From Candidatus Poribacteria bacterium (lineage in GTDB: Bacteria > Poribacteria > WGA-4E > WGA-3G), in NCBI GenBank assembly GCA_965198235.1, contig OZ240248.1:3968001-4032000 (forward strand): a stretch of DNA of 64,000 nt, in the 5' to 3' direction. The position numbers and the translations under genes are program-made. Below the pieces are notes generated by a model, which was not told the origin of the DNA, did not search any database, and was given only the letters and a program-made list of their open reading frames with translations. This document shows positions 3,645-41,310 of this stretch, one piece after another (the first letter of the stretch is position 1; every line of letters begins with the position of its first letter).

Positions 3645-5597
3645 CTAAAAACTATAAAACCAGAGGACGTTGAATTGCACGCTTTGTTCTGATTCAAAGG
3701 CTTTCGCAACATTAAACCGTAGAAAGGAGTCACTTTCACCGAACTGGAAACCGATGCCGGCATCGCTCTTTGGCTCAAGTGTGGGTGTTTCGTCGGTTAC
3801 ATTCCACGCTTGACCTGCATCAAGGAAAAACACCAGAAAGAGATTAAAAAAATCAAATTGCCTGTTTCTCCAGGTGAACAGTTCCGGTAAAGGGTAGAAA
3901 TATTCGATGTTGAAGAGGTAGCCACGATCCCCTGCAAAAGCATAGAGCGGGTAGCCGTTCAATACCCCTGGTCCACCGATAGTAAATTGGCGTTGAATCG
4001 GTAGAGATGCAGTTGAGAAACTGCCGACCGCGCGAGTCCGTATCTCATATTTACCGAATGCATGTGCATAGCGGAGGTGGAGTTGATAGCGCGTAAAATC
4101 GAAATCCGAGCCGAAGGCGGTCCTGCTATGTTCAAGAAGGAAAGTGTTATGCCAACCGAGGTAACCTGTACCGAGGTGACCTTGGCGGAGGTTAAGATCG
4201 TATGTGAACATGACGCTCCGCATGCGACCGGAAGTTATTGCTGGGTTTTCCCGCGCTTTTGACGTTGAACGCCAATTGAAGAGATGCCAATCTGTGCTTT
4301 TTTCCAGGCTCTTGTGATTTTCAGCAAGAAGCGTCAGCGTAACCAAGTGCCTTGGGGGAATATACTCCATGCGTGGCAGCTTCTGCCATCGGAAGGCTAT
4401 TTCAAAGCCGCGCCTTGAATAGTAGTTGTGTAAGTCTTCGGCACCGAAAATGTGATAGAGCAAACCGAACGGGTCATTGAGAGAATTGTCAACACGATAG
4501 GGAATCACGTTGTCAGGTGTGATATCGGTTGTGCGATGGACCCTGGCATTGATTCCAAACCCATGATACCATTTGTCAGCGTCTGCCTCGGGATTATTAA
4601 GTTGTGTGTACGTTGAAAACGGCAATGTATCTATACCAATTTCGACATCCGTTACTTTATTGCCAAACCCGTAGCCTACATGCCCAAAGATATTTGAGGT
4701 TGGCATGCCATTTGAAAAACGCGCCCTTGCGAAGTCAACCTCAAGAACAGACCCCAGTTTCCAACCTGTGACTCGGTTAAATCTAATCATCGGGTTTGCT
4801 GTAAAGGAACCAGAAGATCGTGATGAAGAACGTTCCTTTACAGTAATCACGGCGGTATGCCTGCCATTCTCTTCCTTAACACTCGACTCGACTTTCTCTA
4901 ATTTAGAACCCATTTTTTTTCGCAGCACTTCCACCGCTTTATTGATGTCCTCGTCACCTGCTCTAAGCGTTTCCAGAATCTCCGCCCGATCAATTTTCTG
5001 ATTGCCTTTAATCTGAATTTCATAAATTGGGGAACCATCGGCAAGTCGGAATCCTGTCGGTGAAGATAAAGATCGTTTATCAATCTCTAACGCGAGAAGC
5101 GATTCCAATTCGGGGATCTCAATGCCGAGTTTACCGAGATCCGTTAGGAACTGACCCATCTGTTCTAAAGGGACGCTGCCAACGATGTTTAGCAGATAAA
5201 TTTCCTCATCGCCTTTTACGACTGCAAAGATGCCCGTGAAAGTGTTATCTGCCTGTGGACTTTGCAGAGCGGCTCCGTTCAGGACATAGAGTTGAACCCT
5301 ATCATCTTCCTGTATGCCGTGCCAGTTTTTCGCTTTCAAGTTCTCGCTGTAATACTGAACGAGTGTATCATAAATATCTTCTTCATCATCGTAGATTTGG
5401 ATGTAAAGAGCGTCCACCGTATTGAAGGGTGCCGACGTAACGGCGAGCGTGATTAGTTCACGGGTGAAGTGGAATTGAAACTTGGCATTTGATATATCAG
5501 GACAATCGAAAGCGATTATGCCGTCTGGCGTTTCAGCGGACGTTCGCGGGGATACTATTAGCAGTAGTAAGACTATGATAAAAATATTATATTTCAT
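3645..5597 (-). CDS. Omp85/BamA-TamA family beta-barrel protein with DUF4252-like N-terminal domain and one POTRA-like segment
   Basis: Signal peptide; IYEIQIKGNQKI (POTRA-like); barrel motifs FTIGGPGVLNGY, FFLDAGQAW, DAGIGFQF; C-terminal Phe. Confidence 0.8.
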   Translation of the reverse strand: MKYNIFIIVLLLLIVSPRTSAETPDGIIAFDCPDISNAKFQFHFTRELITLAVTSAPFNTVDALYIQIYDDEEDIYDTLVQYYSENLKAKNWHGIQEDDRVQLYVLNGAALQSPQADNTFTGIFAVVKGDEEIYLLNIVGSVPLEQMGQFLTDLGKLGIEIPELESLLALEIDKRSLSSPTGFRLADGSPIYEIQIKGNQKIDRAEILETLRAGDEDINKAVEVLRKKMGSKLEKVESSVKEENGRHTAVITVKERSSSRSSGSFTANPMIRFNRVTGWKLGSVLEVDFARARFSNGMPTSNIFGHVGYGFGNKVTDVEIGIDTLPFSTYTQLNNPEADADKWYHGFGINARVHRTTDITPDNVIPYRVDNSLNDPFGLLYHIFGAEDLHNYYSRRGFEIAFRWQKLPRMEYIPPRHLVTLTLLAENHKSLEKSTDWHLFNWRSTSKARENPAITSGRMRSVMFTYDLNLRQGHLGTGYLGWHNTFLLEHSRTAFGSDFDFTRYQLHLRYAHAFGKYEIRTRAVGSFSTASLPIQRQFTIGGPGVLNGYPLYAFAGDRGYLFNIEYFYPLPELFTWRNRQFDFFNLFLVFFLDAGQAWNVTDETPTLEPKSDAGIGFQFGESDSFLRFNVAKAFESEQSVQFNVLWFYSF

Positions 5598-7868: not shown

Positions 7869-9695
7869 TCAAACATACCATTGTGCTTGTGCTTTAAAGA
7901 ACTGGGCATAAAGTCCATCTTTTGCCAATAAGGTTTCATGGTCACCGTCTTCAACGACTGCGCCGTTATCAAGGACGAGAATCCGGTCACAGGTTCGGAC
8001 AGAGGAGAGACGGTGTGAAATTAGCACGGATGTACGTCCGACACTCCGCTCAATAAATCGCTCATAGACCGCTTGTTCGGCTAAGGGGTCTAAGGCAGCA
8101 GTCGGTTCGTCAAGCACGACCAGCCAGGGGGCCTCGCGCATGAAACTCCGGGCAGTTGCGAGACGTTGCCATTCGCCACCGGAGAGATCGCGTCCGCCGA
8201 AGGTGGGACCGAGGATTGTCTCGTACCCCTCTGTGAGTCCGTCAACGACCGAGGCGGCACCACCGGCGATAGAGGCTTCTTCCATACGATCGGGGTGCTC
8301 AAGGTCGCCGAAGATAACGTTCTCACGTGCGGTAAGGTGATACTGCGTGAAGTCTTGGAAGACCGCGCTGCAACGCATCAACCACGCTCGACGGTTTTCA
8401 TCTGTGAGTGGGACATCTCCTATATGGATTATCCCCGTTTGTGGACGGTAGAGCCCTAAAAGTAGACGCGCCAGAGTGGTTTTCCCTGCGCCATTGGGCC
8501 CAACAATTGCAACCCGCTCCCCTTTTCTCAACGTCAGCGTTATGTTATTTAACGTGGGTTCTTGCGTATTTGGGTAGAAAAACGATATATTTTCTATCGC
8601 AATGTCTTGAATTGTGTTATTTCCATCTAATTCATCTGTTTTCCGATAGTGTTTCTCTACTGTGGCTGCATCGCGCCCTAAAAACTGATACAAATCTCCG
8701 GACAAACGGTGCATCTGACTGGCTATCAACTGAAAATATCCCGCCACTTCATTCCAGATGCCGTCCAGTTGGACGAGTGCGGCGGCAGCGGCGATATACG
8801 TGCCGACGGTGAGTCCACCTTGAAAGACCTCAAGTAATAGAAGAATGAGCGAACCGGCGTATAATAATCCACGGACGATGTCAATTGCAAGATGTGCGAA
8901 GAATTTACGGCGTTCAATCCTTTGTTGTCCGTGTATGAGTGTCTGCGATAACTGTTTCCAGCGGTTTATCCATAAGTCCTGAGTTTGGTATAATCGAACT
9001 TCCTTGCCCGTGCCACGATCCGTCAGTATTCCTTCTAATGCATCTCGCTCTCGGCGTTCGGATGTCTGCTCGACATCAAAGTTGTAACTATCTACAGCGA
9101 AACGCGAATCGCTCCACCAAGAGATCATGCCAGTGAATGCGGGCAGCAAAACCAATAATGGATGATAACGCCATAACACGACACCGAGGGTTACAACGCT
9201 GATGAATTGTTGAAGGCTATCAATAAGCCACCAGAGGATATTCTCAAGGTCTAATCCGGAAATCGAACGCGCTCGTTCAAGGGCATTTTGATATTCAGGG
9301 GTCTGGAATTCGATGAGTTCTGTGGTATCAGCTTTTTTAAGGATGCATTCATTCAGCCAGACTTCAATGTTTTCTCTGACACGGATATGGAGCGGTTGGC
9401 TTAACTGATTGGCAAGGGTGATAAAAATGCGTAAGCCAAGCAGCCCTATCAACCACGGAACGACTTGCTGCCACCAGTTCGTATCACCTACAGCATCAGT
9501 GATGGCATTGACGAGGTGTTCGGTTACAAAGAACTCACCGGCGGGGACAATACCGAGCGATAGCGTGAGTAGCATCATCCCCAAAAGCGCGAGTGAACCG
9601 CTTTGCCAAACGACTGCGAAAGTTCGGAGGTAGGCGAATAAAGTTTCTTTGGCAGCTGAAATCCATGTTTTCAATTTTCCTTTAGCATTTGACAT
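7869..9695 (-). CDS. ABC exporter, fused permease/ATPase
   Basis: N-terminal transmembrane segments; GPNGAGKT, LSGGEWQR, LDEPTAALDP. Confidence 0.92.
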   Translation of the reverse strand: MSNAKGKLKTWISAAKETLFAYLRTFAVVWQSGSLALLGMMLLTLSLGIVPAGEFFVTEHLVNAITDAVGDTNWWQQVVPWLIGLLGLRIFITLANQLSQPLHIRVRENIEVWLNECILKKADTTELIEFQTPEYQNALERARSISGLDLENILWWLIDSLQQFISVVTLGVVLWRYHPLLVLLPAFTGMISWWSDSRFAVDSYNFDVEQTSERRERDALEGILTDRGTGKEVRLYQTQDLWINRWKQLSQTLIHGQQRIERRKFFAHLAIDIVRGLLYAGSLILLLLEVFQGGLTVGTYIAAAAALVQLDGIWNEVAGYFQLIASQMHRLSGDLYQFLGRDAATVEKHYRKTDELDGNNTIQDIAIENISFFYPNTQEPTLNNITLTLRKGERVAIVGPNGAGKTTLARLLLGLYRPQTGIIHIGDVPLTDENRRAWLMRCSAVFQDFTQYHLTARENVIFGDLEHPDRMEEASIAGGAASVVDGLTEGYETILGPTFGGRDLSGGEWQRLATARSFMREAPWLVVLDEPTAALDPLAEQAVYERFIERSVGRTSVLISHRLSSVRTCDRILVLDNGAVVEDGDHETLLAKDGLYAQFFKAQAQWYV

Positions 9696-11939: not shown

Positions 11940-13319
11940 TTAAAAAATTGTTTCTCGGAGTTTTTCCTTTGCCTTGGCGTAATCTCGACGTGCCTGATAA
12001 AAGACACGTTGTGCCTCTGTAAATTCTGCTTGTGTTTGAAACGCGTCGTTGTAGGTTAGACTCTGATACCCGGGTATTTCAACCGTGACTTCATCAAGCA
12101 CGCGCTCTATCGTCCGTAGCTGCTGCTCACGGATTCTGACGCGCTTTTCTTCAATTTCCATGCGTTCTTTCGCATTCGCCACGGCACGGTAGTCGCGTCG
12201 CACCTCTACGCGGATTGACTTGGTTATTTCGACGTACGCCAGCTGGAGTCGCTCCAGTTCAGCGATTTCTACGGCGCGAAGATTCTCAGTTTTTTTCCCG
12301 TCGTATAACGGGATATTGAAGTTGAAACGTACTTCCCATCCGTCTCGTGTACGCGGGTTTGTTTCAAAAATGCTTGACGTATCTCGCTCACGGTCGAGTA
12401 TCACCGGATCATAGAGTGCCGTTGCGTCCCAAGTCCGGTTCTGTTGGTGTTGTTCCAACATCAGATGGAGGTCCTTGTAGCGTGCTTCAGCAGAGATATC
12501 GGGGAACCGATTCCAGAGTGTCTCTACGGCGAGACGTTCTTGACGAACGATATCGCCTTGTAGGTCGCGTAAATCAAGATTGTTTGCGAGTGCGAGTTCT
12601 ACGGCAGTTTCCAGTGTCATGTCGTCATCAGAAAGGGGTTGTGAGAGGGCAACTTGTACCAGCGGATCGAGTCCGATGAGACTGATAAGTTCCGCAGTGT
12701 CCACATCAAGCCGTCGTTGAAGTTCGTTGAGCGCAAGCTGCTGTTCGGAGAGTTCAAGTTCCGTATTGAGGCGGCTGAGGAAAGGGATCCGTTTTTCTGC
12801 GTGCTTGATTTGCGTGCCTTTTAATTTTTTATTTAGTTCCACCTCAATCGCGCGACGTTGCTGAATCTCTTCTTGTGTGAGGATGATATTATGCCAGAGA
12901 TTCCGAACGGCGTAAACCCTTTCCTTTTTTGCGCGTTCGTATTCAATCTCTGCCTTACGGACATCCTCCTGCGCAGCATCAAGTCCTTCGGGGATTTCGC
13001 CGAATTGTACGAGAAGCATACTGGCTTGTGCGCGAGTGAGATAGTCTCTTTCATCGATATCGCCGTCTTTTTGGCGTTGATATTCGCCGGTGACACCCAC
13101 TTGTGGTAGGTAAATGGCTTTGGACACACGGAGGTGTGCCTTGGCGCGTTCCACCACTTTTTCCGCCTTTTTCACCACCTCGTTGTTCTGTAGCGCGAGT
13201 TCGATAGCGCGTGCTGGCTGCAGTATGACCAGCCGCTGCGCTGAAATGGTGCTCCCGATAGTAAAAAATAGGCAGACCGCTAATACTTTTGTTAACCTCT
13301 TGTTCACTACAATCTCCAT
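11940..13319 (-). CDS. TolC-family outer membrane efflux protein
   Basis: AIELALQNN, YLPQVGVTG, AVELALANN, FNIPLYDG; duplicated helical halves. Confidence 0.85.
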   Translation of the reverse strand: MEIVVNKRLTKVLAVCLFFTIGSTISAQRLVILQPARAIELALQNNEVVKKAEKVVERAKAHLRVSKAIYLPQVGVTGEYQRQKDGDIDERDYLTRAQASMLLVQFGEIPEGLDAAQEDVRKAEIEYERAKKERVYAVRNLWHNIILTQEEIQQRRAIEVELNKKLKGTQIKHAEKRIPFLSRLNTELELSEQQLALNELQRRLDVDTAELISLIGLDPLVQVALSQPLSDDDMTLETAVELALANNLDLRDLQGDIVRQERLAVETLWNRFPDISAEARYKDLHLMLEQHQQNRTWDATALYDPVILDRERDTSSIFETNPRTRDGWEVRFNFNIPLYDGKKTENLRAVEIAELERLQLAYVEITKSIRVEVRRDYRAVANAKERMEIEEKRVRIREQQLRTIERVLDEVTVEIPGYQSLTYNDAFQTQAEFTEAQRVFYQARRDYAKAKEKLRETIF

Positions 13320-32080: not shown

Positions 32081-33409
32081 ATGCCAAAAAACAGTATTCT
32101 CTCGCAAATGCCGATAGATCTCGGTGATAACTTAAAACTTCGATTCGCCACACCTGCCGACACGGATGTCCTCGCTGAATTCAACACCCGTCTTCATGAA
32201 GAAATGAGTGTGGGTCCAGGGGTCCGAGACTTGATGTTGGGAGATCACCCTACCTGCAAGGCAAGCGATTTTACTGTTGTTGAAGACACCAACACCGGGA
32301 AAATTGTATCATCTCTTTGTCTTATTTCGCAGACATGGACGTATAGCGGTATCCCGTTCAAGTTCGGGCAACCCGAATTCGTGGCGACTGAACCTGAATA
32401 CCGCAGGAGAGGCTTAGTCCGAAAGCAGTTCGAGGTGATTCACGCATTGAGCGAGGCACGCGGCGAATTGATGCAAGGCATCACAGGTATCCCATGGTAT
32501 TACCGACTGTTCGGATATGAGATGGCACTCGATATGGAAGCAGAACAGGTCATTGATGGGATACACATCCCGACGCTGAAAAAAGGGGAGACCGAGACAT
32601 GTCGGCTCCGACCACGAACGGATGCAGATAACACTTTCATCCAAGACCTTTACGCAAACGCGATCCAATCTCATGTCTTTGCCTGCCCGCGCACGCCGGC
32701 ACTCTGGGAATACGAGTTCAATGGACGCTCAGCGGGGAGCGAGGCACGACATGAATGGCTACTCATCGAAGGTATGGAAGGGACGCGACTCGGATATGTA
32801 CAATATCTTCAGTGGTGCTACGAGAATTTCCTTGTGATGCGGATGGAACTCAAACCGGGGGTGGGCTGTCTACATCTCATTCCATCACTGCTGCGAGCGT
32901 TGTGGAAAAAGGCAGAGACAACACCGGTTGTCGCCGAGAATGACAACCCAAAAGCAACAGGTGTGCAGTTCATGTTGGGGCGCGAGCATCCTGTCTATCA
33001 AGCATTACCTAAAGGTATCGTCCGTAAGGACCAGCCGTATGCGTGGTATATCCGGGTGCCAGATTTGATAGTGTTTCTACGGCATATCCAACCCGCACTC
33101 GAAAAACATCTCGTCGGAACTATTGCGGAGGGTTACACCGGTGAACTCAAACTCAACTTCTATCGAAGTGGAATCCACTTTACATTTGAACGCGGGCGCA
33201 TGACAAAACTTACTGATTGGACACCGGAAGACGTTGAGAACGGAGATGCGGCATTCCCTGACTTAACTTTCTTGCAGCTGCTGTGCGGACGTTGTCGAAC
33301 AGAAGAGCTAACATCAAGTTTCGTTGATTGCTGGACGAATGGCACTACCGCTGCGGTACTCCTTGATTGCCTGTTCCCACCGTTTACAAGCGAGGTCTGG
33401 CATCTCTAA
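32081..33409 (+). CDS. GNAT family N-acetyltransferase (Eis-like)
   Basis: VATEPEYRRRGLV, GIPWYYRLFGY. Confidence 0.85.
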   Translation: MPKNSILSQMPIDLGDNLKLRFATPADTDVLAEFNTRLHEEMSVGPGVRDLMLGDHPTCKASDFTVVEDTNTGKIVSSLCLISQTWTYSGIPFKFGQPEFVATEPEYRRRGLVRKQFEVIHALSEARGELMQGITGIPWYYRLFGYEMALDMEAEQVIDGIHIPTLKKGETETCRLRPRTDADNTFIQDLYANAIQSHVFACPRTPALWEYEFNGRSAGSEARHEWLLIEGMEGTRLGYVQYLQWCYENFLVMRMELKPGVGCLHLIPSLLRALWKKAETTPVVAENDNPKATGVQFMLGREHPVYQALPKGIVRKDQPYAWYIRVPDLIVFLRHIQPALEKHLVGTIAEGYTGELKLNFYRSGIHFTFERGRMTKLTDWTPEDVENGDAAFPDLTFLQLLCGRCRTEELTSSFVDCWTNGTTAAVLLDCLFPPFTSEVWHL

Positions 33410-33567
33410 TTGGCGGTCAGCCGTCAGCCATTCTTTCCAATACCCGATCGCGACTCCAACAAAAACACTTTGTGGCATCAATTTTCAGCGTAGGGTGTGC
33501 TAAACCCGCATGATTGACACGAGACACTCTTACTGATCGCTGACGGTTTCCAATAGCCAATATAACA

Positions 33568-34137
33568 ATGGTTACCCAATCGCATGTCGTCCTCAACATA
33601 GCACTCCTCTCAAAGCGAGACAAACCTTTTCTTCACTTCTATGCCTTCATCGGTGCTGTCCTTCCTGACCTACCGATGTTCGTCTTCTTCGCAGTCGAAA
33701 CTTTTATCCGTCAGACACCACAACGCGAACTCTGGGGTTCACGTTATTTTATGGAGGCATGGCAAACTTTCTTTGACCTCTTCAACGCGATTCCGCTGAT
33801 TCTGATCGTTCTGGGGATTGGATATTACCTACTGAACTCCGAGAAAACCGTCGTTTTTGCGTGGAGCATGCTCCTCCATTGCGGCTTCGATTTGTTGACG
33901 CATCACGACGATGGACATCATCACTTCTTTCCGATCTCCGATTTTGTTTTTGAAAGCCCGATTTCTTATTGGGACAGGGATCACTATGGCGGCATCGTTG
34001 CACCGATAGAGCGATTGGTTATGCTCGCTGCTTCCGTTTATCTGTTTCCGAGGTTGAAAACCCGACTTGCGCGTGGTGCTTTGGTGGTAGTGAATGTCCT
34101 GTTCTTGGGTTCCTATCTCCTTTTTCTTTTTCGATAA
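33568..34137 (+). CDS. Membrane-bound metal-dependent hydrolase-like protein
   Basis: GAVLPDLP, LLHCGFDLLTHHDDGHHHFFP, ISYWD. Confidence 0.7.
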   Translation: MVTQSHVVLNIALLSKRDKPFLHFYAFIGAVLPDLPMFVFFAVETFIRQTPQRELWGSRYFMEAWQTFFDLFNAIPLILIVLGIGYYLLNSEKTVVFAWSMLLHCGFDLLTHHDDGHHHFFPISDFVFESPISYWDRDHYGGIVAPIERLVMLAASVYLFPRLKTRLARGALVVVNVLFLGSYLLFLFR

Positions 34138-34184
34138 GAGATTAAATAACAGGAGAAGTTAGGAAGTTTGCAGGCAGGGAAGTT

Positions 34185-34282
34185 ATCTCGATTCCATACT
34201 GGTTCGATTAAAAGTGAAAATCTGCAAGTCTTACAGTTATCAAGAACTCTGCGTTTCAATTCCAAATTGGTTCGATTAGAAG
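34185..34282 (-). CRISPR. Orphan single-spacer CRISPR-like mini-array (two 30-bp repeats, 38-bp spacer)
   Basis: Minus strand: CTTCTAATCGAACCAATTTGGAATTGAAAC (34282-34253), then spacer GCAGAGTTCTTGATAACTGTAAGACTTGCAGATTTTCA, then CTTTTAATCGAACCAGTATGGAATCGAGAT (34214-34185). The ATTGAAAC 3' end is typical of type I-B/III repeats. Confidence 0.75.
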
Positions 34283-34304
34283 GCTTCTCGAAAACCTTGA
34301 ATTT

Positions 34305-34334
34305 ATTATACACGATCCTCACGGGATGTGTCAA
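34305..34334 (-). promoter_or_regulatory. sigma70 promoter TTGACA-18-TATAAT pointing into the mini-array
   Basis: Both consensus hexamers; the -10 box ends 22 nt before the first repeat. Confidence 0.7.
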
Positions 34335-34371
34335 GTCACTTTTTAGACGCGTAAGATCATTTAATTCACCC

Positions 34372-34476
34372 GTAGGAGGGAACTCCGATTCCCGACTCTG
34401 ACCGCTGACTGCTGATGGCTGATAGCCTCTTTGTAGGAGGGGGAAACACCCAAGCAAAAACACTCCGATTCCCGAC
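34372..34476. repeat. Two GTAGGAGGG..CTCCGATTCCCGAC REP copies, the second carrying a 20-nt insertion
   Basis: Empty copy at 34372-34396; filled copy at 34433-34476 with GGAAACACCCAAGCAAAAAC. Confidence 0.75.
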
Positions 34477-34496
34477 CCCCTACTTCTACAATCCCA

Positions 34497-34661
34497 CAAA
34501 TCCTTATCAAGAAGGACACGGACAGCGGCATCATCAACGACCCAAACGGTTGGTTCAAGAACCCCCGCGACCTCATCACAGCAATAGAGCGCATCGTCCA
34601 CGTCAGCGTCGAATCCACCAAAATCATTGAGGCGTTGCCTTCGGAGATAATTTCGGACTAA
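34497..34661 (+). pseudogene. C-terminal remnant of a type ISP restriction-modification enzyme
   Basis: Translates to QILIKKDTDSGIINDPNGWFKNPRDLITAIERIVHVSVESTKIIEALPSEIISD*. SGIxNDPN..VSxE..I..LP is the LlaGI/LlaBIII-type C-terminus. No start codon. Confidence 0.7.
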
Positions 34662-34766
34662 GGAAGTCCCGGGACGCGTTTGTGTTGGGAGCGCGTCGCG
34701 GCATCTCTATTTCCAACAATCTTAACATTTACATTGGCGAGGTTAGATACCTCGCCAGCAGATAGC

Positions 34767-35273
34767 TTAGATACCCATCCGAAGAGCGACCGCGGCGAGT
34801 AGGATGAGCAGCGACACAACCCCCATCAGGCTCGATACTATTGACATCTGGGAACGGAGTGACTTCACCTCCGGCGGGAGTTCCTCAAGCGTGGGATCTA
34901 ATGTCTCAATCGCTGCTGCGAGTCGCGGTGCGAAAATCATACTGTGCAACGCCGTGAGGATAACCAGCACGAAAAAAAGCACAATTTTGATCAGGAGCGT
35001 CCGCATAAAAGCGTTGGAAATCGCGGTGGCAGAAGTGAGATCCACTGCAAAGAAGATGTTGACGATACCCGTGAAAAATAGTATACCGATACACCCCCAT
35101 ACGATAGGCTCAAAGCGTTTCCCTATTTGCATCAAGAGTTGGATACGCTGGATAGGTGGCAGGCTTTGTCTGAAATGAGGGACAATCACCATCGCTAAAA
35201 TCAGGTTGCCGCCGACCCATATAACAGCAGCAATAACGTGTAGCCAAAGCGTGAAGAGTGAGAATATATCCAT
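34767..35273 (-). CDS. CopD/DUF4149-like four-helix membrane protein
   Basis: WLHVIAAVIWVGG, TGIVN, LLIKIVL..LH. Confidence 0.75.
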   Translation of the reverse strand: MDIFSLFTLWLHVIAAVIWVGGNLILAMVIVPHFRQSLPPIQRIQLLMQIGKRFEPIVWGCIGILFFTGIVNIFFAVDLTSATAISNAFMRTLLIKIVLFFVLVILTALHSMIFAPRLAAAIETLDPTLEELPPEVKSLRSQMSIVSSLMGVVSLLILLAAVALRMGI

Positions 35274-37869: not shown

Positions 37870-37903
37870 AAAAATAAAAAAGGCGCGCTTAGAAAGCGCG
37901 CCT
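37870..37903 (-). terminator. Intrinsic terminator (REP-derived hairpin + U tract)
   Basis: AGGCGCGCTT-loop-AAGCGCGCCT followed by a T-run on the minus strand. Confidence 0.65.
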
Positions 37904-37922
37904 ACAAAAATAGCGACAAGTC

Positions 37923-38759
37923 TTACTTGCGTTTGATGTCCGCCCAGGTTGTTGTCAATTTCCCAGCGGGTTCGACGGAGACAACCAGCGGTTGGATTTC
38001 ATCGAAGAAGCTCTGCTTATCGGTTGCATCTTTGGGATAGATGGTAACGGCATTGTGCGTTGCCTCGTCAAAGTGCAAGTTCAGATAGGCAGCACCACCG
38101 GACTCACCGCACCGGTAAAGGAAGACGTTGGCACCCTTTTGCAATTCAACTTCAACGGTGTGAAGAATCTTTCGGGCACCACCCGTCCATCTGGTATTGT
38201 TGTACCATTTTTCACCGTTAATCCAGATTTGTGCCCAATCATCGTGTGCTGGGGACATCACGGATGTCATGTCACTCGGTGAATCAATAACGCACATAAC
38301 ATAGGTATCGATGTTATCAGCGGGACCGTCCCGGTTCATATTGTGGTCGTTCGTGACATCGAGTTCAAAGACCGTCCACGCGCGGTCCCCGCCGTGGTCA
38401 TCTCCCCATTTCATATCAATATCTTGGGTCATGAGCAAACCTTCAAGCGTTGAAAGGGAGGCTTGTGTCAGTTTACCGCCGCTCCCTTCCTCGATGAAGT
38501 CCATCGGACCGGAAACTTGGAAGGTTCCATTGTTTTCATAGTTTCCCTCGGGACCGTACCACTTACTGATCCACGTATCTACAGCAATATCATCTTGTCT
38601 AAGGGCATCACCGTTGGGGTCTGGATCTTCTAAGAGGTCGGCTTCCGCTAAGGGACCACCGGAGATCGCGTTAGCCTGTGCAAATACAAGTTGTGAACCA
38701 CTGACAATGAGTGTGAATACAATCACAATTGCGAGTGTAAAAGTATTTAATCTTTTCAT
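37923..38759 (-). CDS. Secreted jelly-roll-like protein, paralog 1 of 3, with C-terminal VEPAGKLTTTWADIK tail
   Basis: Signal peptide; HDDWAQIWING..VELQKGAN motif. Confidence 0.85.
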   Translation of the reverse strand: MKRLNTFTLAIVIVFTLIVSGSQLVFAQANAISGGPLAEADLLEDPDPNGDALRQDDIAVDTWISKWYGPEGNYENNGTFQVSGPMDFIEEGSGGKLTQASLSTLEGLLMTQDIDMKWGDDHGGDRAWTVFELDVTNDHNMNRDGPADNIDTYVMCVIDSPSDMTSVMSPAHDDWAQIWINGEKWYNNTRWTGGARKILHTVEVELQKGANVFLYRCGESGGAAYLNLHFDEATHNAVTIYPKDATDKQSFFDEIQPLVVSVEPAGKLTTTWADIKRK

Positions 38760-38878
38760 GCTATATCCTATATCCTTTTTAGAGATTAAAACCTAAAGTT
38801 ATTAGGACGCGTTATAATGCCTCCTAAGATTCTTTAACTGGTTATATAACGTTGAAATAGCGTTCAACATTACAATTT

Positions 38879-38907
38879 ATTATAACACCTCGACAGAAGT
38901 TTGTCAA
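38879..38907 (-). promoter_or_regulatory. sigma70 promoter TTGACA-17-TATAAT
   Basis: Perfect consensus. Confidence 0.8.
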
Positions 38908-39039
38908 GGGAACTATAGTTATCAGAGAGAATCACGAGCATGGGGAAATCCGAAGAAACACTCGCTCCTACAGGAAAATGGCAGTCAGTAATCAGCCGTC
39001 AATCGTCTAAACGACAACCGTAAAAAACAAAAAATCAAG

Positions 39040-39076
39040 AAAAAGCCCTTGTCTGAAAAGCATAGACAAGGGCTTT
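39040..39076 (-). terminator. Intrinsic terminator
   Basis: AAAGCCCTTGTCT..AGACAAGGGCTTT hairpin just after the 39083 stop. Confidence 0.75.
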
Positions 39077-39082
39077 GGTTAA

Positions 39083-39919
39083 CTAACGATTCCGCTTAAT
39101 ATCTGCCCAGGTGCTTGTCGCCTTTCCGGTAGGATCGACTGGCAAAACACCACGAACCTCATCGAAGAAGCTCTTCTGGTTTTTCGCCTTTTGTGGGTAG
39201 ATTTCGCAGACTTTGTGCGTGTTACTGTCAAAGTGCAAATTGAGGTATGCCGCACCGCCGGATTCACCACACCGATAAAGGACGACATTCGCGCCTTTCG
39301 TCAACTGGACTTCGATGTTGTAGTGAACTATCTGCGCGCCCCCTGTCCAGGTACGATCGTTGTACCATTTATCACCGTTGATCCAAATCTGTGCCCAATC
39401 GTCGTGTGCGGGTGACATCACGGACTTCATATCCTTGGGTGCTTTTATAACACACATCACATAAGTATCGATGTTATCAGCAGGACCATCTCTATTCATA
39501 TTATCCTGGTTAGCCACATCGAGTTCAAAAACTGTCCACTCTCGGACACCGCCGTGCTTCTTATCCCAAGCCATTTTAACGGTCTGCGTCAATTTCAAGC
39601 CTTCGACAGTCGAAAGTTTGGGTTCTGTCAGTTTACCTTTGGTGCCTTCGTCAATAAGGTCTCTCGTCCCGGAAACTTGGAAGGATCCATTGTTTTCATA
39701 GTTCCCTTCGGGCCCGTACCACAGACTGATCCAATCTTTAACATCGGCGTGGTTCTCGCCCAACTGTGCAGCGGCGGCTTCCTCGCGCCAGTCCTTCTCT
39801 TTTATAGGACCACCTTTGATATTGACTTTGTGCTTCTGCGCGAATGTGAGGTGAGAAGTACTCACAACCAGTGCGAACATAATTGCCGTCGCGAGCGTAA
39901 ACTGATATACTCTTTTCAT
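39083..39919 (-). CDS. Secreted jelly-roll-like protein, paralog 2 of 3 (tail VDPTGKATSTWADIK)
   Basis: Highly similar to its neighbours; GGAGG SD before MKRVYQ. Confidence 0.85.
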   Translation of the reverse strand: MKRVYQFTLATAIMFALVVSTSHLTFAQKHKVNIKGGPIKEKDWREEAAAAQLGENHADVKDWISLWYGPEGNYENNGSFQVSGTRDLIDEGTKGKLTEPKLSTVEGLKLTQTVKMAWDKKHGGVREWTVFELDVANQDNMNRDGPADNIDTYVMCVIKAPKDMKSVMSPAHDDWAQIWINGDKWYNDRTWTGGAQIVHYNIEVQLTKGANVVLYRCGESGGAAYLNLHFDSNTHKVCEIYPQKAKNQKSFFDEVRGVLPVDPTGKATSTWADIKRNR

Positions 39920-40033
39920 TTTTGTCTCCTCCATATTGGATAAATAGTTAAGAGCACTGAGTTAAATTACAATGTAACCCAGATTCGTTTATAGGTTATG
40001 TAATGTTGAAGCAGCCCAACATTACAATTTGCT

Positions 40034-40062
40034 ATCATAACATTTGTAGCAAAATTTGTCAA
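40034..40062 (-). promoter_or_regulatory. sigma70 promoter TTGACA-17-TATGAT
   Basis: Near consensus. Confidence 0.75.
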
Positions 40063-40350
40063 GAAAAAATATTGAGATTTGGAGATTTTTTCTACAAAGA
40101 GGCGGTCACCGGTCGGTGATCAGTCTGGTCAGACGTAGATTAAGAATGTATATGGGTATATGGGTGTTAATTTTCTGAATCAAGATTGGCAAGCTTCTTC
40201 GATCTTTACAGGATTCGGAGATGCCTTCTACTTTGAATAAACGAAATGGAGACACAAAAAACATAGCGAATTGTAGCACAAGATAGTGTTACAATCCGCC
40301 ATGTGTATGGATAGGGTTAAAAAACACGCCTATAGAATTTGTGAAGTGTT

Positions 40351-41178
40351 CTACTTGCGCTTAATGTCTGCCCAAGTTGTTGCCAATTTTCCGACGGGAT
40401 CAACAGCAAGAGTGCCGGCAATTTCATCGAAGAAACTCTTCTGGTCATTTGCCTTGTCTGGGTAGATATCGACCGCGGCATGCGTTTTATCGTCGAAATG
40501 CAGGTTCATATACGCATGCCCGCCAGATTCGCCACACCGATAAACGACGATATTCGCGCCTTTTACCAATTGAACTTCAATATTAAAGTCCACCTGCTGT
40601 GCGGCACCTGTCCAACGAGAATTGTTGTACCATTTTTCGCCATTAATCCATATCTGCGCGTGGTCATCATGTGCTGGGGACATCACGGATGTCATGTCTT
40701 TGGGTGCGTCGATAACACAGATAGTATACGTATCAATGTTGTCAATGGGACCGTCGCGGTTCATGTGGTGTGCATCCGCTGGATCCAGTTCAAAGACTGA
40801 CCAACCTCTCGGTCCGCCGTTGCCTTTCTTCCAATTGACATCAACAGTTTGGGTCAATTTCAAACCATCAACGGTCGAAAGTTCGGGTTGCGTCAGTTTA
40901 CCGCCGGTGCCTTCCTCAATAAGGTCTTTCGGTGCAGAGGCACCGAACCCACCGCTGTTTTCGTAGTTCCCATCGGGACCATACCACTTCTCGATCCAAT
41001 TTTTGTTCTTGGAGTGATCTTCGTTCAGTTCTCCGGCTGGGTCTTTTAACCAATCTCCCTTTTTTAAAGGACCGCCGTCAATATTGACTTTCCCTTGTGC
41101 GAATGCAAGTTCGGATATGCCCATAGCCAGTGCGAAGATAATCGCTGTCGCGAGTGTAAGTTGATAAAACTTTCTCAT
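40351..41178 (-). CDS. Secreted jelly-roll-like protein, paralog 3 of 3 (tail VDPVGKLATTWADIK)
   Basis: Highly similar to its neighbours. Confidence 0.85.
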   Translation of the reverse strand: MRKFYQLTLATAIIFALAMGISELAFAQGKVNIDGGPLKKGDWLKDPAGELNEDHSKNKNWIEKWYGPDGNYENSGGFGASAPKDLIEEGTGGKLTQPELSTVDGLKLTQTVDVNWKKGNGGPRGWSVFELDPADAHHMNRDGPIDNIDTYTICVIDAPKDMTSVMSPAHDDHAQIWINGEKWYNNSRWTGAAQQVDFNIEVQLVKGANIVVYRCGESGGHAYMNLHFDDKTHAAVDIYPDKANDQKSFFDEIAGTLAVDPVGKLATTWADIKRK

Positions 41179-41310
41179 TGAAATTTTCCCTCCTTATAGA
41201 TAGACAATTCGCAATGCAGGAACAGGCTTTGGAAACCTGTCTGTCTTGCAAAAGGTTGAGTGAACCTGAATGGAATCCGGATTCACTAAGAAAGTTCCGC
41301 GTTATTAAAC

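What the first reader, a model, noticed from the sequence alone, without database searches (positions are those of the whole stretch)
34149..34334. Orphan single-spacer CRISPR mini-array with its own consensus promoter and no cas genes
Seen: TTGACA-18-TATAAT, a very short leader, then a 30-nt repeat ending ATTGAAAC, a 38-nt spacer and a second repeat degenerate at its 3' end (24/30 identical). A faint TATTTAATC lies 36 nt further on, where a third repeat would start. There is no cas gene in the 64 kb, and I found no spacer match in the window by eye. Established: ATTGAAAC-ending repeats are Cas6-processed (type I-B/III), and solitary or degenerate mini-arrays act as regulatory crRNA-like RNAs (CreA/CreR), as Tn7-CAST homing guides, or as Racr-type decoys. 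Inference: a stand-alone guide RNA that borrows Cas proteins in trans, possibly for gene regulation. Its transcript also runs antisense toward 33568-34137.
Basis: partly seen in the sequence, partly recalled or inferred. Interest (0 to 1): 0.8.

Follow-up and report, generated by a model that had tools for sequence, protein, structure and literature searches.

The report
Orphaned CRISPR regulator carrying anti-cas4 spacer
This tiny CRISPR array is what remains of a small regulatory array after the bacterium lost a whole type I-B CRISPR-Cas system, and its only spacer is a copy of that lost system's own cas4 gene.

Summary
On the minus strand there is a 12/12 TTGACA-18-TATAAT promoter, a 22-nt leader, a 30-nt repeat, a 38-nt spacer and a second repeat with a degenerate 3' end. 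The "third repeat" is chance (11/30).

It is not a free-standing invention. In relatives, this chromosomal site (between a YdjM-like and a CopD-like gene) holds a complete type I-B operon with arrays of 28-139 repeats. The window's mini-array is orthologous to a one-spacer mini-CRISPR next to cas6 in that operon. In six relatives the pseudo-spacer of that mini-CRISPR pairs in a 5-1-5-1-5 pattern, behind a CCN PAM, with the promoter region directly downstream of it. That is the CreR/CreA design.

This genome has no I-B cas gene. The regulatory pseudo-spacer is gone, and the spacer now present matches the 3' end of I-B cas4 in five relatives (35/38 at best, PAM CCA). It has no full or seed-type target in its own genome.

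Four other genomes that lack I-B Cas1 and Cas7 carry different anti-cas spacers. The most likely story is self-targeting acquisition, then loss of the operon, leaving an orphan guide. That guide may still block re-entry of I-B. Transcription is untested.

The parts
34305..34334 (-). Promoter: TTGACA (34334-34329), 18 nt, TATAAT (34310-34305)
   Evidence: 12/12 consensus, the only such site in 33400-35000. Both hexamers are identical in the orthologous mini-CRISPR of G066 and in main-array leaders of relatives.
34283..34304 (-). 22-nt leader between the -10 box and the first repeat
   Evidence: Promoter to end of R1 is 84% identical (70/83) to the G066 mini-CRISPR, against 73-80% to eight main-array leaders, the G074 mini-CRISPR and the G061 array leader.
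34253..34282 (-). Repeat 1, 30 nt, ending ATTGAAAC
   Evidence: 26/30 to the genus consensus repeat. Rfam CRISPR-DR2 30.5 bits, below gathering. Weak structure, -2.3 kcal/mol.
34215..34252 (-). 38-nt spacer: a copy of the 3' end of type I-B cas4 (anti-cas spacer)
   Evidence: Mismatches to cas4 of relatives: 3 in G077, 5 in G085, 6 in G030, 7 in G083, 7 in G063, each preceded by ...CTCCA. In G083 the site lies inside the ORF scored as Cas4. No other match in its own genome.
34185..34214 (-). Repeat 2, 3' end degenerate (…CGAGAT)
   Evidence: 28/30 to the genus consensus. With its 12-nt flank it is 34/43 identical to the degenerate second repeat of the G066 mini-CRISPR, against 27-29/42 for terminal or solo repeats next to gene A in G066, G024 and G004.
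34173..34184 (-). Short flank still homologous to the flank of the G066 mini-CRISPR. The left deletion breakpoint lies just beyond it.
   Evidence: Alignments. The TTGACA-N16/17-TATAAT promoter and its pseudo-spacer target, which follow in relatives, are absent here.
34335..34397 (-). Sequence upstream of the promoter shared with the G066 mini-CRISPR, including one REP-like unit
   Evidence: The 60 nt upstream of the -35 box are 79% identical to G066, against about 50% for every main-array leader.
34340..34505 (.). REP-like interspersed repeats
   Evidence: blastn finds 48 hits (34340-34425) and 90 hits (34426-34505) in its own genome, each count including the query's own copy. High multi-copy depth in sequencing runs.
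34506..34660 (+). 3' fragment of a Type ISP restriction-modification gene
   Evidence: 87.6% identical over 145 nt to the 3' end of a 1004-aa ORF of G008 that scores Type_ISP_C at 1.7e-90. Single copy in its own genome.
33568..34137 (+). Gene A (189 aa, weak YdjM-like membrane protein): conserved left border of the locus
   Evidence: DNA match in 65 of 65 genus genomes. Pfam YdjM 22.5 bits, below its cut-off of 29.
34767..35273 (-). Gene B (168 aa, CopD-like): conserved right border. In relatives cas6 follows it.
   Evidence: Synteny. Pfam CopD 39.4 bits, above its cut-off of 32.1.

Best explanation
The element is the orphaned remnant of a CreR/CreA-type mini-CRISPR. Such a mini-CRISPR encodes a crRNA-like RNA that makes Cascade repress its own operon. 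It belonged to a type I-B CRISPR-Cas system that once occupied this site.

Shown:
(1) Relatives carry, between the same two flanking genes, gene B - cas6 - cas8b - cas7 - cas5 - cas3 - cas4 - cas1 - cas2 - leader - long array - gene A. The mini-CRISPR sits just downstream of cas6 in G066, G085 and G030. No mini-CRISPR was seen in G083 or G087.
(2) The window's promoter, leader, both repeats and both flanks are orthologous to that mini-CRISPR.
(3) In relatives its pseudo-spacer pairs at positions 1-5, 7-11 and 13-17 with a CCN-flanked site just after the -10 box of the promoter directly downstream of it.
(4) This genome has no I-B cas gene, no main array and no target promoter.
(5) Its spacer is not the regulatory pseudo-spacer. 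It is a full-length copy of the cas4 3' end with a CCA PAM.

Inferred: the adaptation machinery inserted a self-derived spacer into the mini-CRISPR. G020 and G022 show the intermediate state, repeat - anti-cas spacer - repeat - pseudo-spacer - degenerate repeat. Full complementarity turned a repressor locus into a self-cleaving guide. Survivors had lost the operon, and the pseudo-spacer unit was lost by repeat recombination. Today the consensus promoter probably still makes a short pre-crRNA that has no cognate Cas6 or Cascade and no target. It would act only if a related I-B operon re-entered the cell, and would then turn that operon against its own cas4.
For: Site and synteny. Of 11 relatives' syntenic loci, six hold arrays of 28-139 repeats (G087 47, G018 56, G085 135, G083 28, G030 139, G077 119). 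G024 and G078 have 1-2 repeats. G004, G014 and G006 have none at up to 5 mismatches. The G083 operon was annotated as Cas6, Cas7, Cas5, Cas3, Cas4, Cas1b and Cas2, and the G066 operon as Cas8b1/Cst1, Cas7/Cst2, Cas5t, Cas3 and Cas4.

Orthology to the G066 mini-CRISPR. Upstream 60 nt 79%, promoter to R1 84%, R2 plus flank 79%, spacer 54%, which is about what unrelated sequence would give (my estimate, no control run). Main-array leaders score about 50% and 73-80% for the first two regions.

CreR-type pairing in 6 of the 7 mini-CRISPRs examined (G022 had no recognisable promoter). PAMs are CCT, CCA or CCG. Matches are 6/6 at positions 1-5, 0/6 at 6, 5-6/6 at 7-11, 0/6 at 12, 5-6/6 at 13-17, then mostly mismatches. 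G030 and G009 show compensatory changes.

Loss. tblastn with ten proteins of the G083 I-B locus finds only the distant resident Cas1 (28%) and Cas3 (22%). The G087 interference module gives 0 DNA matches in G000. Only two I-B repeats exist in the genome at up to 8 mismatches. Cas1b passes its cut-off in 25 of 65 genus genomes, and G000 is not among them.

Spacer. It matches cas4 in five relatives behind CCA.

Recurrence. Six anti-cas spacers occur in five genomes: G000 cas4, G020 cas3, G022 cas8b1, G061 cas1 twice, G076 cas2. All have CCN-type flanks in most relatives. All five genomes lack Cas1b and I-B Cas7 (0 of 5). Mini-CRISPRs carry a spacer other than the pseudo-spacer in 3 of 3 Cas1b-less genomes and 0 of 5 Cas1b-positive ones.

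Precedent. Residual arrays with anti-cas spacers in E. coli I-F (PMC2886076 and PMC8616872, passages). CreR (bioRxiv 10.1101/2023.03.10.532045, passages). A CCN PAM in another I-B system (PMC8406132, passages).
Against: The order of events is inferred, and no conspecific genome was available. Loss of cas does not require anti-cas spacers. G004, G024, G014 and G006 lost the operon and keep no spacer, and the two spacers of G078 match nothing. In G061 and G076 a type III R-M system sits where the operon was, and G000 keeps a Type ISP fragment, so ordinary defence-island cassette turnover could explain the loss. The spacer's exact source is unknown: the best match is 35/38, in another species, and there is no exact match in three public collections. 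One independent protospacer (a G018 spacer against G000 C1:5084913-5084946, 31/34) is flanked by ACT, not CCN. Transcription is not shown. G020 (84% complete), G022 (95%) and G061 (85%) are fragmented assemblies, and the G020 and G022 contigs end just beyond the mini-CRISPR, so absence there is less certain. The genomes compared are kin, and the groups were partly defined after seeing the pattern.
Confidence: 0.72

Rival explanations
1. Selected anti-cas guard. The orphan guide is kept by selection because it destroys any incoming type I-B operon, using that operon's own Cas proteins. This is the mechanism proposed and tested for the orphan I-F arrays of E. coli. It is compatible with the best explanation and differs only in claiming present function.
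For: The only surviving spacer is the anti-cas one. Relatives' arrays hold 28-139 repeats. Both promoter hexamers are unchanged between G000 and G066 (0/12), while the 18-nt spacing has 5 changes and the upstream 60 nt are only 79% alike. R1 and the first 26 nt of R2 would yield a normal crRNA. The pattern recurs in five species. Precedent: PMC2886076 and PMC8616872, section 20 (passages).
Against: No expression data. There is no within-species conservation test. The element's divergence from G066 (79-84%) is greater than that of the neighbouring gene (88%), which looks neutral. A leader-proximal position may by itself protect a spacer from deletion.
Confidence: 0.25
2. Neutral debris. The operon was lost by ordinary defence-island turnover, and the anti-cas4 spacer is an incidental by-product of spacer uptake from DNA next to the array, with no role in the loss.
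For: R-M cassettes or fragments sit in the emptied site in G061, G076 and G000. Partial deletions of cas1/cas2 are common in the genus (G087, G032, G036, G016, G011). The intact G083 array holds a spacer against its own leader region, so self-derived uptake near the array does occur. A hotspot of uptake next to arrays is recalled from Levy et al. 2015, which I did not read.
Against: PAM-flanked anti-cas spacers were seen only in genomes lacking I-B Cas1 and Cas7 (5 of 5). None was seen in the intact arrays examined. The self-match in G083 lacks a CCN flank.
Confidence: 0.2
3. One reading: an active stand-alone regulatory guide that borrows Cas proteins in trans from the genome's other type I system to regulate host genes.
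For: The resident 37-nt repeat also ends ATTGAAAC, so the 8-nt 5' handle would be identical. The promoter is a perfect consensus.
Against: No full or seed-type target exists in the genome. The resident Cas6 is unrelated to the I-B Cas6 (BLASTP E 0.03, different Pfam families) and its repeat forms a 6-bp hairpin that the I-B repeats lack. The spacer is a full-length gene copy, not a partial-match pseudo-spacer.
Confidence: 0.04
4. A main CRISPR array collapsed to one spacer by repeat recombination. This was my own first reading.
For: The main-array leaders of relatives have the same promoter design and align with it. R2 lies 47 nt from the stop of gene A, close to the 57 nt of the terminal repeat in G066.
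Against: The upstream 60 nt, the leader, R1 and the R2 flank are all closer to the G066 mini-CRISPR than to any main-array leader or terminal repeat.
Confidence: 0.05

Closest known systems
CreR / CreA degenerate mini-CRISPRs of type I-B systems (Haloarcula hispanica creTA between cas6 and cas8; CreR autorepression of the cas8 promoter). bioRxiv 10.1101/2023.03.10.532045, passages read. Li et al. 2021 is known to me only through that text.
   Same: The relatives' ortholog has one pseudo-spacer between a good repeat and a degenerate repeat and sits beside cas6. Complementarity is limited to about 17 nt with every sixth position unpaired, behind a functional-type PAM, on the promoter directly downstream of it. 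The window's element shares the promoter, repeats and flanks of that locus.
   Different: In the window the pseudo-spacer, the target promoter, Cas6 and Cascade are all absent. The spacer is a full-length match to a coding sequence (cas4). No creT-like toxin was looked for. The organism is a bacterium with sigma-70-type promoters.
Anti-cas spacers in orphan I-F arrays of Escherichia coli (Touchon and Rocha 2010, PMC2886076, passages read; Almendros et al. 2016, known only through the review PMC8616872, section 20)
   Same: A very short residual array in a genome that lacks the cognate cas genes. The spacer's best matches are cas genes of the same subtype in relatives. The same two explanations compete: self-targeting caused the loss, or the array guards against re-entry.
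   Different: Type I-B, not I-F. The array derives from a regulatory mini-CRISPR inside the operon, not from a flanking array. Each species here has a different anti-cas spacer, rather than one conserved set. No experimental test exists.
Self-targeting spacers and CRISPR autoimmunity (Stern et al. 2010, Vercoe et al. 2013, as summarised in PMC8616872, section 13, passages read)
   Same: A spacer that matches the carrier lineage's own DNA, associated with a degenerate or lost CRISPR-Cas locus and with a deletion that includes the target.
   Different: The target is the cas operon itself, and the target is no longer in the genome.
Virus- or MGE-borne mini-arrays and solitary repeat units (as summarised in PMC8616872, section 16, passage read)
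   Same: A single spacer between a complete and a truncated repeat, with repeats similar to those of a host-type system.
   Different: Chromosomal and syntenic with relatives. No mobile-element genes flank it, apart from a dead R-M fragment.

Membership tests
CRISPR array (type I-B repeat family of this genus) | Repeats belong to a repeat family that forms long arrays next to cas genes | tested here: met
   26/30 and 28/30 to the genus consensus. The family is found in 29 of 36 same-genus genomes and lies next to the I-B operon in G083 and G066.
CRISPR array (type I-B repeat family of this genus) | Spacer length within the family's range | tested here: met
   38 nt. 104 of 717 unique spacers are 38 nt; range 32-45.
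CreR/CreA regulatory mini-CRISPR | Mini-CRISPR with one pseudo-spacer between a repeat and a degenerate repeat | tested here: met
   It is orthologous to the mini-CRISPR of G066.
CreR/CreA regulatory mini-CRISPR | Lies within or beside its cas operon (the cas6-cas8 intergenic region in I-B) | tested here: not met
   There is no I-B cas gene anywhere in the genome. The feature is met only by the orthologs in G066, G085 and G030.
CreR/CreA regulatory mini-CRISPR | Pseudo-spacer partially complementary (seed only) to a PAM-flanked site at a cas or creT promoter | tested here: not met
   0 sites in its own genome with CCN plus 15 seed positions at up to 2 mismatches, and 0 with any PAM at up to 1 mismatch. 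Met in 6 of 7 relatives' mini-CRISPRs.
CreR/CreA regulatory mini-CRISPR | Cognate Cas6 and Cascade available to process and use the RNA | tested here: not met
   The only Cas6 is that of an unrelated system.
Anti-cas orphan array (E. coli I-F type) | Array present while the cognate cas genes are absent from the genome | tested here: met
   The genome is 96.3% complete in 2 contigs.
Anti-cas orphan array (E. coli I-F type) | Best matches of the spacer are cognate cas genes of relatives, with an interference-type PAM | tested here: met
   cas4 in 5 relatives, 3-7 mismatches, flank CCA in 5 of 5. That CCN is the PAM of this system rests on 6 anti-cas protospacers and 6 pseudo-spacer targets and on analogy with C. 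difficile I-B (PMC8406132). One contrary flank, ACT, was seen.
Anti-cas orphan array (E. coli I-F type) | Array is expressed | tested here: inconclusive
   There is only a consensus promoter. See Tried and rejected for the RNA runs.
Anti-cas orphan array (E. coli I-F type) | Blocks establishment of an incoming cognate cas operon | not testable with these tools
   Needs a transformation or conjugation assay.
Anti-cas orphan array (E. coli I-F type) | Anti-cas spacer conserved among cas-less strains | not testable with these tools
   The collection holds one genome per species. No other record holds the spacer exactly. Other species carry other anti-cas spacers.

The most novel reading that the evidence does not exclude
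The type I-B operons of this genus carry a built-in fuse. Their CreR-type autorepressor locus can also accept new spacers. When it captures a PAM-flanked piece of its own operon, the repressor locus becomes a self-cleaving guide that eliminates the operon. The surviving promoter-driven guide then persists as a heritable block to re-acquisition of that CRISPR-Cas type. This would have happened independently in at least three species at the mini-CRISPR (G000, G020, G022) and, in other arrays, in G061 and G076. It would link Cas autoregulation, autoimmunity and the patchy distribution of CRISPR-Cas in one mechanism.
Probability: 0.25. Interest if true: 0.7.

Novelty: new variant of a known kind. 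Interest (0 to 1): 0.55.

Why it matters
Why closely related bacteria so often differ in having or lacking CRISPR-Cas is an open question. Self-targeting is a favoured but rarely documented cause. This genus offers a natural series at one chromosomal site: intact I-B operons with a CreR-type autorepressor, intermediates whose autorepressor locus has gained an anti-cas spacer, and end states like this window where only the promoter-driven anti-cas guide is left.

The series makes two ideas directly testable with defined sequences. One is that regulatory mini-CRISPRs can take up spacers and thereby trigger loss of their own system. The other is that the leftover guide protects against re-acquisition, so far shown only for E. 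coli I-F.

The clean 5-1-5-1-5 covariation between pseudo-spacer and promoter in six species is also independent comparative support for CreR-type regulation in bacterial I-B systems.

For this genome alone the practical conclusion is modest. The array is an orphan relic, not an active regulator.

Tried and rejected
1. Third repeat at 34148-34119: 11/30 to the consensus, below background. Rejected.

2. Collapsed main array (my reading up): rejected after searches showed closer orthology to the G066 mini-CRISPR.

3. A single deletion by recombination between a mini-CRISPR repeat and the terminal repeat of the main array: considered. R2 plus flank fits the mini-CRISPR's own second repeat better (34/43 against 27-29/42), so it is not favoured, though not excluded.

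4. Phage or plasmid target. There is no exact match in viral contigs, metagenome contigs or genome contigs. In 'phages' only 17-22-nt chance matches at E about 6 were found.

5. Expression. The look-up of sequencing runs listed 18 runs. Four were laid (X1, X4, and RNA runs X5 and X6, all as contigs). X1 tiles 34050-34461 without differences and may be the source sample. The RNA contigs cover gene A, the REP units, the Type ISP fragment and a repeat-like piece at about 34230-34289, but not the unique parts of the mini-array. Contigs cannot show absence, so nothing can be said about transcription or habitat.

6. Anti-cas spacers against the interference genes. A genus-wide DNA search with the G087 module gave five short candidates (G027, G002, G076, G075, G026). 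None is flanked by a repeat. Rejected.

7. A PAM from independent protospacers. Of 717 spacers blasted against G000, one good hit (31/34) was found, with flank ACT. This is too few to define a PAM.

8. Resident-array spacers against I-B loci or their own genome: none match.

9. (tblastn of the Type ISP peptide) used the wrong peptide through a script slip and gave no result. The DNA match is used instead.

10. CAST and decoy readings were not specifically tested. The window was not scanned for Tn7 genes.

Supplementary files of the papers were not opened. The supplementary figures S6 and S7 of the CreR preprint, and lists of anti-cas spacers, may hold similar cases.

12. The statement that a CreR locus capturing anti-cas spacers is not in print rests only on (20 papers; 5 papers; 3 papers), and on 'orphan' occurring 0 times in the CreR preprint.
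Full report
WHAT IS THERE. Read on the minus strand, 34334-34185 contains the following:
- TTGACA, 18 nt, TATAAT (12 of 12 consensus, the only promoter-like site in 33400-35000)
- a 22-nt leader
- a 30-nt repeat ending ATTGAAAC (R1, 34282-34253)
- a 38-nt spacer (34252-34215)
- a second repeat (R2, 34214-34185) that is 24/30 identical to R1 and degenerate at its 3' end

Rfam's CRISPR-DR2 model scores R1 at 30.5 bits, under its gathering score of 37. The proposed third repeat is 11/30 to the family consensus. That is below what random stretches of the window reach, and it overlaps the stop codon of the neighbouring gene. The genome (5.17 Mb, 2 contigs, 96.3% complete) holds only these two copies of the repeat at up to 8 mismatches.

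THE REPEAT FAMILY AND THE SITE. The repeat is the standard repeat of a CRISPR family common in the genus. A 25-nt core pattern is found in 39 of 61 genomes searched (G000 included), and in 29 of 36 of the same genus, with up to 275 copies per genome.

The flanking gene A (33568-34137, weakly YdjM-like) is conserved in 65 of 65 genus genomes. I fetched the syntenic region of 11 relatives:
- Six have arrays of 28-139 repeats between gene A and gene B (34767-35273, CopD-like), on the same strand as the window's mini-array.
- G024 and G078 have one or two repeats.
- G004, G014 and G006 have none at up to 5 mismatches.

In G083 the region reads gene B, cas6, an unassigned 585-aa ORF in the cas8b position, cas7, cas5, cas3, cas4, cas1b, cas2, leader, array, gene A. 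In G066 the effector genes score as Cas8b1/Cst1, Cas7/Cst2 and Cas5t.

WHAT THE GENOME STILL HAS. The only Cas1 (a Cas4/Cas1 fusion), the only Cas6, a Cas3' helicase and Cas2 lie 1.27 Mb away. They sit next to an array of 56 repeats of 37 nt that also end ATTGAAAC but form a 6-bp hairpin. That Cas6 is unrelated to the I-B Cas6 (BLASTP E 0.03, different Pfam families).

tblastn with ten proteins of the G083 I-B locus (eight Cas proteins and two other ORFs), and a DNA search with the G087 interference module, find no I-B gene in G000. There is no I-B Cas7 and no type III RAMP. Cas1b passes its curated cut-off in 25 of 65 genus genomes, and G000 is not among them.

THE SPACER. It has no other match in its own genome at up to 11 mismatches. 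It has no exact match in the viral, metagenome or species-genome collections, and only chance hits in cultured phages.

Across 159 genomes of the order, at up to 3 mismatches, it matches one place besides itself: the I-B operon of G077. With more mismatches allowed, it matches the homologous place in G085 (5), G030 (6), G083 (7) and G063 (7). In G083 that place lies in the last 47 nt of the ORF scored as Cas4. The mismatches fall at three-base intervals, as expected for wobble divergence of a coding sequence. Every copy is preceded by ...CTCCA. The spacer lies on the strand opposite to cas4, so it cannot be a deletion remnant. It is an acquired spacer.

NOT THE MAIN ARRAY BUT THE OPERON'S MINI-CRISPR. 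At first I took the element for a collapsed main array, because the main-array leaders of seven relatives have the same promoter design. The closest relative by gene A (G066, 88%) changed this reading.

On G066 contig C149, gene B is followed by cas6. About 0.6 kb further on there is a one-spacer mini-array that aligns with the window's element well beyond the repeats. Identities to G066 are 79% for the 60 nt upstream of the -35 box, 84% from the promoter to the end of R1, and 79% for R2 plus 12 nt of flank. The spacers are only 54% alike, about what unrelated sequence would give (my estimate, no control run). Eight main-array leaders, the G074 mini-CRISPR and the G061 array leader reach about 50% and 73-80% for the first two regions. 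Terminal repeats next to gene A fit R2 worse, at 27-29/42.

A genus-wide search with the G066 element gave matches in 11 of 65 genomes. On inspection, one-spacer or two-spacer mini-arrays of this kind are present in G066, G074, G085, G030, G009, G020 and G022. A degenerate one is in G018. The two G079 hits are ordinary arrays, and the G073 and G004 hits touch only the flank.

WHAT THE MINI-CRISPR DOES IN RELATIVES. Downstream of its degenerate second repeat (7-31 nt) lies a TTGACA-N16/17-TATAAT promoter. Two to nine nt after the -10 box there is a CCN (CCT, CCA or CCG), followed by a sequence that matches the mini-array's spacer. The matches are 6/6 genomes at positions 1-5, 0/6 at position 6, 5-6/6 at 7-11, 0/6 at 12, 5-6/6 at 13-17, and mostly mismatches from 18 on. 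This held in six of the seven mini-arrays examined. G022 had no recognisable promoter before its contig ends.

G030 and G009 differ from the others at several paired positions, in spacer and target alike. Seed-only pairing, with every sixth base unpaired, behind a PAM and on the promoter next to the mini-CRISPR, is the design described for CreA/CreR. There, a degenerate mini-CRISPR in the cas6-cas8 intergenic region of type I-B makes Cascade repress the cas8 promoter (bioRxiv 10.1101/2023.03.10.532045, passages). In G066 the promoter is followed by a 121-aa ORF of no known family and then cas8b1.

WHAT HAPPENED IN THE WINDOW. G000 keeps the mini-CRISPR's promoter, leader, both repeats and about 12 nt of flank. 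It lacks the regulatory pseudo-spacer, the target promoter, and everything from there to the end of the main array. On the other side cas6 is gone. In its place are REP-like units (48 and 90 blastn hits genome-wide, the query's own copy included) and a 155-nt 3' fragment of a Type ISP restriction-modification gene. The present spacer has no seed-type target in the genome: 0 sites with CCN and up to 2 mismatches in 15 seed positions.

THE PATTERN IN OTHER GENOMES. G020 and G022 carry the intermediate form: repeat, extra spacer, repeat, pseudo-spacer, degenerate repeat.
- The extra spacer of G020 matches cas3 (3 mismatches to G030; flank CCC, CCT or CCG).
- The extra spacer of G022 matches the 5' part of cas8b1 of G066 (4 mismatches; flank CCC).
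- Neither has a target in its own assembly.
- G076 has a three-repeat array at the syntenic site whose second spacer matches cas2 (4 mismatches; flank CCA).
- G061 has an array of about eight spacers whose two leader-proximal spacers match cas1 (4-8 mismatches; flanks CCA/CTA and CCT/CCG).

All five genomes lack Cas1b and I-B Cas7 (0 of 5). G061 keeps only cas6. In G061 and G076 a type III R-M pair occupies the place of the operon.

Among mini-CRISPRs, a spacer other than the pseudo-spacer occurs in 3 of 3 Cas1b-less genomes and 0 of 5 Cas1b-positive ones. In the intact arrays I held (about 700 spacers), the only self-match was a G083 spacer against its own leader region, with a non-CCN flank.

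Caveats. The genomes are kin. The groups were seen before they were counted. Three of the assemblies are fragmented. My searches used cas genes of two species, so diverged anti-cas spacers would be missed. G078 (two spacers, no match), and G004, G024, G014 and G006 (no spacers left), show that loss also happens without visible anti-cas spacers.

MECHANISM. Shown: orthology to a CreR-type locus, absence of the I-B system, and a PAM-flanked cas4-derived spacer.

Inferred: a self-derived spacer was inserted at the mini-CRISPR's first repeat. Full complementarity plus a CCN PAM allowed Cas3 attack on the operon. CCN is the adaptation and interference PAM in C. difficile I-B (PMC8406132, passages). 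Survivors carried deletions that removed the operon, and the pseudo-spacer unit was lost by recombination between repeats. Preferential uptake of spacers from DNA next to an array is something I recall from Levy et al. 2015, which I did not read.

The alternative is that the operon was lost through cassette turnover at a defence hotspot and the spacer is incidental.

In either case, the present element is a promoter with a guide that has neither protein partners nor a target in this cell. If a related I-B operon entered, its Cas6 and Cascade could use this guide against its own cas4. That was proposed for E. coli by Touchon and Rocha (PMC2886076, passages) and, according to the review PMC8616872 (section 20), shown by Almendros et al. 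2016.

COMPARISON AND NOVELTY. By descent the element is a CreR/CreA-type mini-CRISPR. By present state it fails three of that family's four defining features and is better filed with the anti-cas orphan arrays. Three things seem new: the subtype (I-B), the origin of the orphan array from the operon's own regulatory locus, and the recurrence with different spacers in several species. My literature searches found no report of a CreR locus capturing anti-cas spacers. They were few, and supplements were closed.

VERDICT. Interest is moderate (0.55): an ordinary relic in this genome, but part of an unusually legible natural series bearing on how CRISPR-Cas systems are lost.

Noticed in passing
G000:C1:2723600-2738056 (L006, L007; outside the window): The resident CRISPR-Cas locus has a WYL/WCX regulator, four ORFs (836, 324, 280, 319 aa) with no NCBIfam hit and no Pfam hit at or above the gathering score, Cas3' helicase, Cas6, a Cas4g/Cas1g fusion, Cas2 and 56 repeats of 37 nt. 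A I-G-type adaptation module sits beside a stand-alone Cas6 and unrecognised effector genes, so the subtype is unclear.
   Followed up: partly
window 34340-34505: REP-like interspersed units (core ...GAGTCGGGAATCGGAG...) with 48-90 blastn hits in the genome (own copy included) and very high depth in sequencing runs. One such unit also sits between cas1 and cas2 of G077 and flooded a DNA search.
   Followed up: partly
window 34506-34660 (+): A dead 3' fragment of a Type ISP restriction-modification gene. Full-length paralogs (874-1004 aa) stand in tandem in G008 and G087. With the type III R-M genes in G061 and G076, this marks the site as a defence-gene hotspot.
   Followed up: partly
L061 native 4393-4555 (G085, between cas3 and cas4): A second embedded mini-array with three repeats and two spacers inside an intact I-B operon. 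Its second spacer resembles the anti-cas8b1 spacer of G022 (7 mismatches) but has no target in the part of the G085 locus that I held. It may be another regulatory element, or a guide against a rival I-B variant.
   Followed up: partly
L087 5599-5964 (G066): A 121-aa ORF of no known family is the first gene behind the promoter targeted by the pseudo-spacer, ahead of cas8b1. G085 has an ORF start in the same position. I did not examine whether it is a small Cascade subunit, a toxin or something else.
   Followed up: no
L058 about 8194-8500 (G087); also G011:C327 and G075:C974: cas4 and the 5' two-thirds of cas1 are missing. In G087 a solitary repeat abuts the truncated cas1. The cas1 homology in all three genomes starts at the same query position (1173 of the G077 probe). 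This points to a shared or recurrent repeat-associated deletion.
   Followed up: partly
L066 12268-12303 and array spacer at 12877 (G083): An intact array carries a spacer identical over 33 of 36 nt to a conserved element of its own leader, with a non-CCN flank (GGAAG). The same element is conserved in the leaders of G003 and G009.
   Followed up: no
window 37870-41200: Three tandem paralogous stretches (about 37890-38570, 39090-39920, 40256-41180), roughly 70% alike, showed up as repeated cross-matches in the synteny comparison.
   Followed up: no
G000:C1:5084913-5084946 (outside the window): A spacer of the G018 array matches this place at 31/34, with 5' flank ACT. It may be a prophage or mobile element targeted by a relative's CRISPR system.
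   Followed up: no
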